Assembly (NCBI RefSeq): GCF_045037415.1
Contig: NZ_CP173438.1
Direction: 5' to 3' (one strand)
DNA from: Escherichia coli
GTDB lineage: Bacteria > Pseudomonadota > Gammaproteobacteria > Enterobacterales > Enterobacteriaceae
DNA length: 64,000 nucleotides
The notes beneath the pieces are model-generated. The model ran no database searches. It saw nothing but the letters and a program-made list of their open reading frames with translations, and had not been told where the DNA came from. Position numbers and translations under genes: made by a program. Shown here piece after piece: positions 57,033-58,504 of the stretch. Numbering within the stretch: position 1 is the first letter of the stretch; every line of letters starts with the position of its first letter.

Positions 57033-57803
57033 ATGGAAACCGTATTTGACGCACTGAAAGCAATGGGAAAAGCCACATCGGTAGAACTGGCCGCGCGACT
57101 TGATATCAGTCGTGAAGAGGTTCTCAACGAGCTGTGGGAACTCAAAAGAAATGGCGTCGTTGATAAAACTGGTCACACCTGGTTTCTGGCTGGCGAAGGT
57201 GAATCCCGGGTAACCGAAGAGCGGCCAGTAAAATCTGAAGCACAGGATATGCTGACCGGGGAGGTCGAACAAAAAGTTACCGCAGACATGATGATTGAGT
57301 TTATCGGTCAGGATGGTGCTAAAACGTGTGAGGAACTGGCGGGTAAGTTCGGCGTCAGTACTCGCAAGGTTGCCTCCACGCTGGCGGTGGTAACCGCAAC
57401 GGGGCGGCTGGCACGCGTTAATCAGAACGGTAAATTTCGTTACTGCATGCCGGGCGATAATTTACCAGCAGAGCCGAAAGCCGCGCTGGTAACGGAAAGT
57501 GATGGTAAGGCCTTTCCTCAGCCAGCAGGTGCTGCGTTACCAGTCCGGGAAGCCGCAACACAGGAAGAAATTAAAACAGAAACTGTGGCGGACATTGTGC
57601 AGCCGTTGCCATCGTTTACCGAAACGCAAGCAGATGAGCTGATTTTTCCGTCCCTTCGCAGGGCAAACCTGGCGCTGCGCAGGGCGAAAAGTGATGTTCA
57701 GAAGTGGGAGCGAGTCTGCGCCGCGCTGCGGGAGCTGAACAAGCACCAGGATATTGTTCGACAGATTGTCGATTCATCCGGTCGTATTGTGTCGGAAAAG
57801 TGA
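57033..57803 (+). CDS. Hypothetical prophage protein with two winged-helix-like segments
   Basis: ATG at 57033 preceded by GGAGG; the track ORF starts 18 nt earlier at TTG; function unknown. Confidence 0.4.
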
Positions 57804-57818
57804 TTGCCGGAGACGCTT

Positions 57819-58211
57819 ATGGCAAAAGTATTTACACCAGAAGAGCGGGAAGAAGTGAAGGCGCGCATTGTGGAATTCGTGCGCCTGAGCGGACGAGAAA
57901 CTTTTCGACAACTGGCAGATAAAACGGGTGTCAGTAAGACCGCTATTCGTCGTTTATCTGGTGCGCTTGCGGCCAGTGGTGATGTCTGGCTCTCTGGTTG
58001 CGGGGTATTTCCATCAGAGCAGGCGTATCGCGTATGGCGTAAGACACCGGAGAAGGCTGCTGACCCGACACTGATTCGAAAGTTACCTGACGGAGAAATA
58101 CGTCGTTACAACAGACGGCAGAACATAATTTGTCGTGAGTGCCGCCAGAGCGAAGTTATGCAGCGTGTGCTGGCGTTCTATCGGGGAAACTTTCAGGAGG
58201 TGATGGAGTGA
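57819..58211 (+). CDS. Hypothetical prophage protein (possible HTH)
   Basis: ORF from ATG 57819 (MAKVFTPEEREE...); function unknown. Confidence 0.4.
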   Translation: MAKVFTPEEREEVKARIVEFVRLSGRETFRQLADKTGVSKTAIRRLSGALAASGDVWLSGCGVFPSEQAYRVWRKTPEKAADPTLIRKLPDGEIRRYNRRQNIICRECRQSEVMQRVLAFYRGNFQEVME

Positions 58212-58504
58212 GGGTCAGAGTTTATATTGCCGGTCCAATGACGGGATATGAAAATTTCAACCGTGAGGCGTTTCACAAGGCGGAAGAGGAACTGAAACGG
58301 GAAGGGCATACCGTCTTAAACCCGGCAGTACTTCCGGACGGGCTGACACAGCCGCACTACATGGATATTTGCATGGCAATGATTCGTTGTGTGGATGCGA
58401 TTTACATGCTGAATGGCTGGCAGCGGTCAGCGGGCGCTAAGGCAGAGCTGGCACTGGCGGAGAAACTGGGGCATGCAGTGATTTATCAGGAGGTGGCTCA
58501 ATGA
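58208..58504 (+). CDS. DUF4406-type protein (nucleoside 2-deoxyribosyltransferase-like fold)
   Basis: VRVYIAGPMTGYENFNREAFHKAEEELKREGHTVLNP resembles the conserved N-terminus of DUF4406 proteins; GTG start after an AGGAGG RBS is inferred. Confidence 0.5.
   Translation: MRVRVYIAGPMTGYENFNREAFHKAEEELKREGHTVLNPAVLPDGLTQPHYMDICMAMIRCVDAIYMLNGWQRSAGAKAELALAEKLGHAVIYQEVAQ

What the first reader, a model, noticed from the sequence alone, without database searches (positions are those of the whole stretch)
57033..58504. Three coupled genes in the post-replication region ending in a DUF4406 protein
Directly after the O/P-like replication genes, three genes are tightly packed: a 256-aa protein with two winged-helix-like segments, a 131-aa protein, and a roughly 98-aa protein whose N-terminus (VYIAGPMTGYENF...NP) resembles DUF4406, a nucleoside 2-deoxyribosyltransferase-like fold. 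A small enzyme-like protein coupled to DNA-binding-like proteins in a nin-type region could be a nucleotide-modifying or anti-defence module; this is speculative.
Basis: inference. Interest (0 to 1): 0.4.

Follow-up and report, generated by a model that had tools for sequence, protein, structure and literature searches.

The report
Ren-like and DUF4406 genes after replication
Three small accessory genes sit behind the replication genes of a common E. coli Rac-type prophage: a double winged-helix protein, a homologue of phage lambda's Ren protein, and a tiny nucleotide-cleaving-type enzyme. They are real and already catalogued, but they are separately exchangeable parts, not one new three-gene module.

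Summary
Three co-directional genes lie at 57033-57803 (256 aa), 57819-58211 (130 aa) and 58208-58504 (98 aa), directly after O-like and P-like replication genes. They match Pfam DUF1627, DUF977 and DUF4406 far above threshold. RefSeq annotates them with these names in many E. coli genomes that are 100% identical over the stretch.

The DUF4406 call survives both tests. The AlphaFold2 model has pLDDT 95. All its best PDB matches are nucleoside 2-deoxyribosyltransferase (NDT) superfamily members. The Tyr and the nucleophile Glu are conserved. A near-invariant Ser sits where nucleotide-specific relatives (DNPH1, MilB, BcmB) have Ser, so I infer an NMP/dNMP N-glycosidase.

The three-gene module idea is not supported. 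DUF4406 is a very large phage family. Among 80 species-representative genomes that carry it, 6 have a Ren-like gene within 5 kb and none has DUF1627. Within E. coli prophages each gene can be swapped independently. The tight coupling also continues into the next gene, Ead/Ea22.

Verdict: an ordinary, already catalogued mosaic region of the early operon. All three functions remain untested experimentally.

The parts
55505..56545 (+). Context: O-like replication initiator (N-terminal HTH plus DnaT-like ssDNA-binding domain; ydaU-like)
   Evidence: Pfam DnaT E 6.5e-17 and PHROG 1032 'replication initiation protein' E 1.9e-90. RefSeq CDS, with coordinates mapped from L001.
56538..56999 (+). Context: lambda P-family helicase loader (ydaV-like)
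   Evidence: Pfam Phage_lambda_P E 5e-16 and PHROG 109 'P-like helicase loader' E 2e-63. RefSeq names it 'replication protein P'.
57033..57803 (+). Gene A: DUF1627 / YdaW-like protein, 256 aa. It has two winged-helix domains (residues 1-52 and 84-138), two disordered linkers, and a conserved C-terminal long helix (about residues 200-255).
   Evidence: Pfam PF07789 E 5e-98 and PHROG 630 E 9e-135. AlphaFold2 domain pLDDT is 83-92 for the two wHTH domains, below 50 for the linkers, and 54-74 for the C-terminal helix. The second wHTH is weakly Ren-like: PHROG 142 E 2.6e-6, and BLASTP against gene B E 5e-4.
57819..58211 (+). Gene B: DUF977 / 'LygF' protein, 130 aa, a homologue of lambda Ren (winged helix plus a conserved C-terminal motif, NIICRECRQSEVMQRVLAFY)
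   Evidence: Pfam PF06163 E 2e-41 and PHROG 142 'Ren-like exclusion protein' E 1.2e-43. Lambda Ren itself hits PHROG 142 at E 1.6e-41. BLASTP of B against lambda Ren gives E 4e-9.
58208..58504 (+). Gene C: DUF4406 protein, 98 aa, a minimal NDT-fold putative N-glycosidase. Key residues are Y6, S74 and E80, with D53 also present here.
58501..58962 (+). Context: Ead/Ea22-like gene, translationally overlapped with C (ATGA). It shows that the coupling runs past the reported interval.
   Evidence: Pfam Ead_Ea22 E 9.5e-12 and PHROG 250. The overlap is read directly from the sequence.

Best explanation
The interval is the distal end of the replication block of the early rightward operon of a Rac-type lambdoid prophage. 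The order is cro-like, YdaT/CII-like, O-like, P-like, then these accessory genes. It holds three independently exchangeable accessory genes, not one machine.

- Gene B is a Ren orthologue-type protein, a small winged-helix protein. In lambda, Ren is made from the same operon position, is dispensable for growth, is thought to act at replication, contacts Rex proteins in two-hybrid assays, and (from classical genetics) spares the phage from Rex-type exclusion.
- Gene A is a larger relative of B with two winged-helix domains and an oligomerising C-terminal helix. In the loci inspected here it accompanies O/P-type replication modules and is absent from two loci with other modules. I infer that it also acts on or near the replication complex or origin DNA.
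- Gene C is a minimal member of the NDT superfamily. It keeps the Tyr and the Glu nucleophile used to cut an N-glycosidic bond. It also has the S-x-G-x-x-x-E signature of the 5'-phosphate-binding branch (DNPH1/Rcl, MilB, BcmB). Most likely it hydrolyses a nucleoside or deoxynucleoside 5'-monophosphate into base plus sugar phosphate, adjusting or cleaning the nucleotide pool during phage DNA synthesis.

Shown: gene structure, family membership, fold, residue conservation, synteny and its limits. Inferred: the substrate class of C, the replication-linked role of A and B, and any anti-exclusion activity of B.
For: Gene structure and families.

Same order in an isolated phage: Rac-SA53 has ydaU-ydaV-ydaW-lygF-rac19-ead.

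Ren homology:
- B and lambda Ren both match PHROG 142 over their full lengths, at E 1e-43 and 2e-41.
- BLASTP gives E 4e-9 with a shared C-terminal motif.
- Lambda ren lies immediately after P.

Literature on Ren:
- ren is transcribed from PR with O and P and is 'likely involved in DNA replication', and Rex proteins interact with O and Ren (bioRxiv 10.1101/2021.04.19.439022).
- A RexB-Ren yeast two-hybrid pair was reported (PMC3224144).
- ren is non-essential (PMC10695390).

Gene A: two wHTH domains plus a long helix, and partial similarity to B.

Gene C:
- pLDDT 95.
- Foldseek: T. brucei NDT 2a0k at E 4e-5 and TM 0.75, then C. thermalis NDT, MilB, DNPH1 and BcmB.
- The family profile aligns E80 to the Glu of the D-x-G-T-x-x-E motif of 2a0k, and the S-x-G motif to 'SPGTHIE' of BcmB.
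- Over 228 diverse homologues: Y6 92% (plus F 7%), S74 99%, G76 98%, E80 98%.

Independence of the three genes.
Against: - No biochemical or genetic data exist for any of the three families. DUF4406 appears only in passing in three papers.
- The Asp that binds the sugar 3'-OH in NDT and DNPH1 aligns to D53. It is present here but conserved in only 42% of the family. The chemistry or substrate may therefore differ.
- At 98 aa the protein lacks the C-terminal elements that complete the active site in the 130-160-aa solved relatives.
- PF05014 itself scores below its threshold (14.4 against 28.8 bits).
- Lambda Ren does not reach the Pfam DUF977 model at E 0.01 or better. The Ren link rests on the PHROG profile and one pairwise alignment at 29% identity.
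- Ren's own mechanism is unknown, so 'works like Ren' transfers little mechanism.
- B and C are strongly linked in E. coli prophages (4-nt overlap; 68 of 78 loci with near-identical B have C). A functional B-C connection in this lineage cannot be excluded.
Confidence: 0.55

Rival explanations
1. One reading: A, B and C form one functional cassette. DNA-binding proteins target or regulate a small enzyme that modifies nucleotides or DNA, or counters a host defence.
For: - Translational coupling of B and C by a GTGA overlap.
- The order A-B-C is kept across diverged alleles in E. coli/Shigella prophages, with A at 58-100% and B at 59-100% identity next to near-identical C, and in phage Rac-SA53.
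- 68 of 78 loci with near-identical B that have room carry C, and 71 of 71 with room carry A.
Against: - Among 80 species-representative genomes with DUF4406, 6 have a Ren-like gene within 5 kb and none has DUF1627.
- The neighbours of C are heterogeneous: P, DnaB, IstB-like, methylases, RusA, lysozyme, integrase.
- C occurs in 344 phage records across Vibrio, Arthrobacter, Mycobacterium and other hosts. B occurs in only 25, all Escherichia or Shigella.
- Each gene is individually replaceable.
- The coupling continues equally into Ead/Ea22.
- No significant PADLOC match.
Confidence: 0.1
2. C is a true nucleoside 2-deoxyribosyltransferase. It would swap bases between deoxynucleosides (salvage or pool rebalancing), as many phage records annotate it.
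For: - The best Foldseek hits are NDTs, with the closest sequence match the T. brucei NDT at 25% identity.
- The 'YIAGP' motif is identical to that of the T. brucei enzyme.
- Many phage records name it 'nucleoside deoxyribosyltransferase'.
- A PF05014 NDT from a metagenomic phage contig showed transferase activity (bioRxiv 10.1101/2025.10.22.683976). That enzyme belongs to a different family.
Against: - Nucleoside-specific NDTs carry Asp six residues before the nucleophile Glu, where it binds the 5'-OH. DUF4406 has a 99%-conserved Ser there, as in the nucleotide-specific DNPH1, MilB and BcmB (the roles of these residues come from published NDT and Rcl work, recalled from memory).
- PF05014 is below its threshold.
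- The database names are transferred labels, not experimental results.
Confidence: 0.15
3. C is not an enzyme of bulk nucleotide metabolism. It would be an anti-defence protein that binds or cleaves a nucleotide-derived immune signal or NAD-related molecule, using the TIR/NDT-type Glu chemistry.
For: - The gene sits in an accessory slot that alternates with a methyltransferase-like gene.
- The family is very widespread in phages, with 12,253 cluster representatives.
Against: - No association with known defence or anti-defence genes in 80 diverse loci.
- No PADLOC hit.
- The TIR matches are a fold-level resemblance with 8-14% identity.
- The sequence motifs are those of NDT, DNPH1 and MilB, not of TIR.
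Confidence: 0.1
4. A and B are ordinary transcription regulators of the prophage (for example of late or lysogeny genes) and are not replication-linked or anti-exclusion factors.
For: Both give many weak matches to MarR, ArsR, DeoR, IclR and Lrp-type HTH families.
Against: - All these matches are below the family thresholds.
- Both genes sit inside the replication/nin stretch, not at a regulatory junction, and no internal promoters were found.
- B's specific homologue is Ren.
- In the loci inspected, A is present next to O/P-type replication modules and absent from two loci with other modules.
Confidence: 0.1

Closest known systems
Bacteriophage lambda Ren (gene ren, directly downstream of P)
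   Same: - Same PHROG family (142) over the full length.
- BLASTP E 4e-9.
- Shared C-terminal motif, CR(Q/E)S..M.RVLA.Y.
- Small winged-helix protein.
- Same operon, just after the P-type helicase loader.

   Different: - 130 aa against 96 aa, with an insertion after the winged helix.
- Only 29% identity.
- Lambda Ren does not reach the Pfam DUF977 model.
- Here a DUF1627 gene lies between P and the Ren-like gene.
- No rexAB genes were noted among the annotated prophage genes, and the anti-Rex phenotype is untested.
Rac prophage / phage Rac-SA53 early region (ydaU-ydaV-ydaW-lygF-rac19-ead)
   Same: Identical gene order and families. Protein identity is 70% for A, 63% for B and 95% for C. This is the same kind of element.
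   Different: Different alleles of A and B, which is typical lambdoid mosaicism. The immunity region and the downstream nin-like genes differ.
Nucleoside 2-deoxyribosyltransferases (PF05014; L. leichmannii, T. brucei and C. thermalis NDT)
   Same: - Same N-terminal Y-x-A-G-P strand.
- The Glu nucleophile sits at the same position of the x-G-x-x-x-E motif.

   Different: - 98 aa against 135-165 aa.
- Ser instead of Asp six residues before the Glu.
- The sugar-binding Asp is not conserved in the family (42%).
- Below the PF05014 gathering score.

Nucleotide N-glycosidases of the same superfamily: DNPH1/Rcl, MilB, BcmB, BlsM
   Same: - The same S-x-G-x-x-x-E signature. BcmB 'SPGTHIE' aligns to 'SAGAKAE' here.

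   Different: - 17-22% identity.
- No detectable profile-to-sequence match to human DNPH1.
- The additional phosphate-binding residues of those enzymes were not mapped.
- Activity unknown.
DUF1937 protein PA1492 (PDB 1T1J, structural-genomics target, function unknown)
   Different: 18% identity. It is also uncharacterised, so it adds no functional information.

Membership tests
Pfam DUF4406 (PF14359) | Whole-protein score above the curated gathering score | tested here: met
   129.7 bits against a cut-off of 22, E 5.7e-38, covering model positions 2-91 of 91.
NDT superfamily (nucleoside 2-deoxyribosyltransferase-like fold) | Flavodoxin-like alpha/beta fold shared with solved NDT, DNPH1 and MilB structures | tested here: met
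   [not shown]
NDT superfamily | Catalytic Glu nucleophile in the x-G-x-x-x-E motif | tested here: met
   E80 aligns to the Glu of 'DCGTAFE' in 2a0k and 'SPGTHIE' in 4jen. It is 98% conserved over 228 homologues.
NDT superfamily | Tyr in the first strand (Y-x-A-G-P; Y7 in bacterial NDT, Y24 in DNPH1) | tested here: met
   Y6 in 'VYIAGP' aligns to 'IYIAGP' of 2a0k. Y 92% plus F 7% across the family.
NDT superfamily | Asp that binds the sugar 3'-OH (D72 in L. leichmannii NDT, D80 in DNPH1) | tested here: inconclusive
   D53 is present here and aligns to the Asp of 'ALDIRQ' in 2a0k. However, it is only 42% conserved across DUF4406.
Pfam Nuc_deoxyrib_tr (PF05014), i.e. NDT proper | Score above the gathering threshold | tested here: not met
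   14.4 bits against 28.8, E 0.042. It should not be filed as an NDT proper.
DNPH1/Rcl/MilB-type nucleotide N-glycosidases | Ser (not Asp) six residues before the nucleophile Glu, contacting the 5'-phosphate | tested here: met
   S74-x-G-x-x-x-E80, with S74 99% conserved. It aligns with the Ser of BcmB 'SPGTHIE'. The role of this Ser comes from the published Rcl/DNPH1 and MilB structures, recalled from memory.
DNPH1/Rcl/MilB-type nucleotide N-glycosidases | Hydrolysis of (d)NMP to base plus (deoxy)ribose 5-phosphate | not testable with these tools
   Needs an enzyme assay.
Lambda Ren family (PHROG 142 'Ren-like exclusion protein') | Full-length profile match shared with lambda Ren | tested here: met
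   Gene B: E 1.2e-43, profile positions 1-115 of 116. Lambda Ren: E 1.6e-41. BLASTP between the two: E 4e-9.
Lambda Ren family | Position downstream of the P-type helicase loader in the PR operon | tested here: met
   P at 56538-56999, then A, then B. In loci without A, B follows the last replication gene directly. Lambda ren follows P.
Lambda Ren family | Protects the phage from Rex-type exclusion | not testable with these tools
   Needs plating on rexAB lysogens. The phenotype for lambda comes from classical genetics, recalled from memory.
Pfam DUF977 (PF06163) and DUF1627 (PF07789) | Scores above the gathering thresholds | tested here: met
   141.6 against 22.1 bits, and 325.6 against 28.1 bits.
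   0 of 80 species-representative DUF4406 loci have DUF1627, and 6 of 80 have a Ren-like gene within 5 kb. Neighbours are variable. Each gene is individually replaceable in E. coli prophages.
Known anti-phage defence system components (PADLOC-DB) | Significant match to a defence-system protein model | tested here: not met
   There were no hits for C. A and B gave only weak HTH-type hits (E 4e-5 to 8e-3, 14-22 bits).

The most novel reading that the evidence does not exclude
DUF4406 would be a very widespread, minimal phage-encoded nucleotide N-glycosidase whose real job is counter-defence or pool sabotage. For example, it might destroy a specific modified or signalling mononucleotide, or the dNMP products of host nucleotide-depletion defences. 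In E. coli lambdoid phages it would work together with the Ren-like protein to which it is translationally coupled. The evidence does not exclude this. The enzyme's substrate is unknown. The family has more than 12,000 cluster representatives and no experimental study. B and C are linked in 68 of 78 E. coli-type loci.
Probability: 0.1. Interest if true: 0.6.

Novelty: already known. Interest (0 to 1): 0.2.

Why it matters
As it stands, it matters little. The region is a standard, already annotated part of Rac-type prophages, present at 80% coverage or more in 494 of 5,426 complete E. coli genomes.

The analysis does yield three useful points:
- The 'DUF977/LygF' proteins of E. coli prophages can be read as Ren homologues.
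- DUF4406 keeps NDT-type catalytic residues together with the phosphate-binding Ser signature. This gives a concrete, cheap biochemical hypothesis (an NMP/dNMP N-glycosidase) for a family with more than 12,000 sequence clusters and no characterised member.
- The apparent three-gene cassette is a by-product of lambdoid mosaicism, so it should not be carried forward as a candidate anti-defence module.

Tried and rejected
- Direct sequence search of the three proteins against PDB: no significant hits.
- Weak hits of both winged-helix proteins to Z-alpha domains were considered. The best one is the N173A/Y177A ADAR1 mutant, and the Z-DNA contact residues are not conserved here. I rejected this as generic wHTH similarity.
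The DNPH1 residue mapping therefore rests on motif spacing and fold hits only.
- Fusion partners of 44 long DUF4406 proteins: Pfam finds nothing informative, only one HTH and one DUF551.
- Phage records naming DUF4406 hits 'MazG-like' or 'deoxycytidylate deaminase' turned out to be plain small DUF4406 ORFs with transferred names, not fusions.
It was repeated with 14 sequences.
- AlphaFold2 of gene A gave confident domains but a low global pTM (0.28). I therefore did not attempt a fold search of the whole model.
- Literature searches for DUF4406, DUF977, DUF1627, their Pfam accessions and deoxyribosyltransferase with anti-defence terms found no functional study. One search for 'ren gene' returned only human renin papers.
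- Rfam and promoter/terminator scans found no RNA element or signal inside the interval.
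Full report
**1. What is in the sequence**

The interval 57033-58504 holds three co-directional genes.
- Gene A runs from ATG 57033 to TGA 57803 (256 aa), with GGAGG 8 nt upstream.
- Gene B runs from ATG 57819 to TGA 58211 (130 aa, not 131), with GGAGA 5 nt upstream.
- Gene C starts at GTG 58208, overlapping B's stop as GTGA, and ends at TGA 58504 (98 aa). AGGAGG lies 7 nt upstream.

The next gene, Ead/Ea22-like, starts at ATG 58501 and overlaps C's stop as ATGA. The ORF after that overlaps it by 23 nt. A consensus scan finds no promoter-like or terminator-like site between 57000 and 59600; the first hit beyond that is a minus-strand promoter-like match at about 59700. 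Rfam finds no RNA family in the interval. The three genes are therefore a slice of a longer transcription unit.

Upstream lie, in order:
- a Cro-like gene;
- a YdaT/CII-like gene;
- an O-like initiator with a DnaT domain (55505-56545);
- a lambda-P family loader (56538-56999).

**2. Where the window comes from**

The 1472-bp interval is 100% identical in many complete E. coli genomes. Some part of it is found in 2,865 of 5,426 genomes, and 494 hold at least 80% of it. RefSeq annotates the genes as 'DUF1627 domain-containing protein', 'DUF977 family protein', 'DUF4406 domain-containing protein' and 'ead/Ea22-like family protein'.

The window is colinear with strain THO-003. The yersiniabactin island fills much of the left part. 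A Rac-type lambdoid prophage next to a tRNA-Ser gene fills the right quarter. Phage Rac-SA53 has the same order, ydaU-ydaV-ydaW-lygF-rac19-ead.

**3. Gene A**

Pfam DUF1627 matches at E 5e-98 and PHROG 630 at E 9e-135. An AlphaFold2 model built on 15 alleles shows:
- two confident winged-helix domains, residues 1-52 and 84-138, with pLDDT 83-92;
- two disordered linkers, residues 56-79 and 145-203;
- one long C-terminal helix, about residues 200-255, which is the most conserved part of the alignment.

The second winged helix is weakly Ren-like (PHROG 142 at E 2.6e-6; BLASTP against gene B at E 5e-4). All 120 homologues listed of 2,436 found are 86-98% identical; the named ones are almost all E. 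coli, with a few Salmonella.

**4. Gene B**

Pfam DUF977 matches at E 2e-41. PHROG 142, 'Ren-like exclusion protein', matches at E 1.2e-43 over the whole profile.

I fetched lambda's ren gene (J02459 40280-40570), which lies directly after P.
- BLASTP of B against Ren gives E 4e-9, with a shared C-terminal motif: NIICRECRQSEVMQRVLAFY against NLVFKECRQSAAMKRVLAVY.
- Lambda Ren itself matches PHROG 142 at E 1.6e-41.
- Ren does not reach Pfam DUF977.

B is therefore a longer homologue of Ren, at a position close to Ren's (after P, with gene A in between).

From the literature:
- ren is transcribed from PR with O and P and is 'likely involved in DNA replication', and Rex proteins interact with O and Ren (10.1101/2021.04.19.439022).
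- A RexB-Ren two-hybrid pair was reported (PMC3224144).
- ren is non-essential (PMC10695390).
- That ren mutants become sensitive to Rex exclusion is classical genetics, which I recall from memory.

**5. Gene C**

Pfam DUF4406 matches at E 6e-38, and PHROG 355, 'nucleoside 2-deoxyribosyltransferase', at E 3e-48. PF05014 proper is below threshold at 14.4 against 28.8 bits.

The family is very large: 12,253 cluster representatives at E 1e-3 or better in the 1.84-billion-protein library.

An AlphaFold2 model built on 76 diverse homologues has pLDDT 95.
- Foldseek against PDB returns only NDT-superfamily or NDT-like entries at the top: T. brucei NDT 2a0k (E 4e-5, TM 0.75), C. thermalis NDT, Leishmania PDT, MilB, DNPH1 and BcmB.
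- A profile of the family hits 2a0k at E 1e-4. It aligns Y6 to the Tyr of 'IYIAGP', D53 to the Asp of 'ALDIRQ', and S74/E80 to 'D-C-G-T-A-F-E'. The same region aligns to 'SPGTHIE' of BcmB.

Conservation over 228 diverse homologues:

| Residue | Conservation |
|---|---|
| Y6 | 92% (plus F 7%) |
| G9 | 100% |
| N18 | 97% |
| F22 | 99% |
| Y51 | 94% |
| W71 | 94% |
| S74 | 99% |
| G76 | 98% |
| A77 | 98% |
| E80 | 98% |
| D53 | 42% |

From published work on NDT, Rcl/DNPH1 and MilB (my own knowledge):
- The Glu is the covalent nucleophile.
- The Tyr helps position it.
- The residue six positions before the Glu is Asp in nucleoside-specific NDTs, where it binds the 5'-OH. It is Ser in the 5'-phosphate-binding nucleotide hydrolases.

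I therefore infer that DUF4406 is a minimal (d)NMP N-glycosidase rather than a nucleoside transferase. This step is an inference, not a demonstration. The short length and the variable D53 are reasons for caution.

**6. Is it a module?**

(a) Eighty IMG/VR loci with 96-99% identical C:
- A Ren-like gene lies directly upstream in 76. It comes in two allele classes, about 100% and about 60% identical, which share the last 40 or so residues and the junction with C.
- Three loci lack a DUF977-type B (L067, L077, L081). In L067, the one inspected, another small HTH ORF takes its place. One locus has no upstream room.
- A varies from 58 to 100% identity. It is absent from L058 and L062, the two A-less loci inspected, whose replication modules are a single 358-aa initiator and a DnaC-like loader pair.

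(b) Eighty loci with 96-100% identical B:
- All 71 with room upstream have A.
- 68 of 78 with room downstream have C.
- In the three C-less loci inspected, the slot holds a methyltransferase-like ORF, a DUF551 protein, or a chimeric ORF keeping only the first 26 or so residues of C.

(c) Eighty species-representative genomes carrying DUF4406, spanning Enterobacterales, Vibrio, Shewanella, Aeromonas, Burkholderiales, Actinomycetes, Planctomycetota and others:
- Iterated HMMs find a Ren-like gene within 5 kb in 6, of which four or five are directly upstream. All 6 are Enterobacteriaceae or E. coli-like.
- DUF1627 is found in none.
- Pfam scans of the immediate neighbours give a scatter of families. 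Upstream: P, DnaB, IstB-like, DNA methylases and RusA. Downstream: lysozyme, integrase, DUF968, methylases, Ead/Ea22 and NinX.

(d) Among GenBank phage records, C has relatives in 344: Vibrio 124, Arthrobacter 89, Mycobacterium 24 and others. B has relatives in only 25, all Escherichia or Shigella.

Conclusion: C is a free-standing, very widespread early-region accessory gene. A and B are narrow enterobacterial, replication-associated winged-helix genes. The triplet is a recurrent arrangement of one lambdoid lineage, produced by mosaic recombination at gene junctions. A lineage-specific functional link between B and C cannot be ruled out, but nothing requires one.

**7. Comparison with known systems and novelty**

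The nearest known items are:
- lambda Ren, for B;
- the Rac / Rac-SA53 early region, for the whole arrangement;
- the NDT superfamily, for C, specifically its nucleotide-hydrolase branch (DNPH1/Rcl, MilB, BcmB) and the uncharacterised DUF1937 protein.

No significant match to a defence-system model was found in PADLOC: C gave none, and A and B gave only weak HTH-type hits. No NCBIfam model reached its cut-off; C gave no hit and A and B only weak HTH hits. No paper in the library characterises DUF4406, DUF977 or DUF1627.

The finding is real but already catalogued. Its sequences are identical to annotated RefSeq genes and its arrangement is that of a described phage. What remains unknown is the biochemistry. 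The residue pattern gives a specific testable hypothesis for it.

**8. Verdict**

- Observation: confirmed.
- Interpretation: partly supported. Folds and families are right, the module idea is not supported, and the Ren homology was missed.
- Novelty: already known.
- Interest: 0.2.
- Most novel reading not excluded: DUF4406 as a widespread phage counter-defence nucleotide glycosidase, functionally tied to the Ren-like protein in E. coli phages. Probability about 0.1; interest if true about 0.6.

Noticed in passing
window 52763-53236, minus strand: Rfam matches above gathering score to three small RNAs clustered at the immunity-left side of the prophage: C4 antisense RNA (52763-52850), isrK (52875-52951) and DicF (53185-53236). 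The first two overlap the 5' part of the Rha-like ORF at 52148-53002.
   Followed up: no
window 60643-60967: A hok/sok type I toxin-antitoxin locus lies about 2 kb downstream of the finding. The sok RNA is at 60643-60814 (106.7 bits) and the hokD ORF at 60812-60967.
   Followed up: no
window 1-48242: The left three quarters of the window are chromosomal and 99.99% identical to E. coli THO-003. They contain cobST, several tRNA-Asn genes, the yersiniabactin island (fyuA at about 16250 to ybtS at about 45080, with its integrase at about 45275-46537), mtfA, and a tRNA-Ser at about 47766-47855. Next to the tRNA-Ser the Rac-like prophage begins with a frameshifted integrase.
   Followed up: partly
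L231 3390-3740; L232 3390-3863; L240 3432-4034; L067 ~4750-5004: The slot after the Ren-like gene is exchangeable in related prophages. L231 has a chimeric ORF that keeps only the first 26 or so residues of DUF4406. L232 has a methyltransferase-like ORF. L240 has a DUF551 protein. In L067 the Ren-like gene itself is replaced by a different small HTH ORF that still overlaps the DUF4406 start.
   Followed up: partly
proteins P0148, P0157, P0169, P0172, P0173, P0175, P0252: Many metagenomic DUF4406 proteins carry a shared N-terminal extension with no Pfam annotation, beginning 'MKKQxTLxFLVxNLxxWP...'. It may be an uncharacterised domain fused to the enzyme.
   Followed up: no
L085 (contig JAIHTM010000290.1, binned as a Collinsella MAG): A 3-kb contig assigned to a Collinsella genome bin carries an E. 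coli-type DUF977-DUF4406 pair with C 94% identical. This is probably a mis-binned enterobacterial prophage fragment.
   Followed up: no
proteins P0269 (403 aa) and P0271 (372 aa): Two database proteins combine DUF1627 and DUF977 in one polypeptide. They are probably read-through or frameshift artefacts of the adjacent A and B genes, not true fusions.
   Followed up: no
window 54982-55533: The gene between the Cro-like gene and the O-like gene matches both the Pfam 'YdaT toxin' model (E 2e-5) and the PHROG 'CII-like transcriptional activator' family (E 7e-42). The two database names for the same protein conflict.
   Followed up: no
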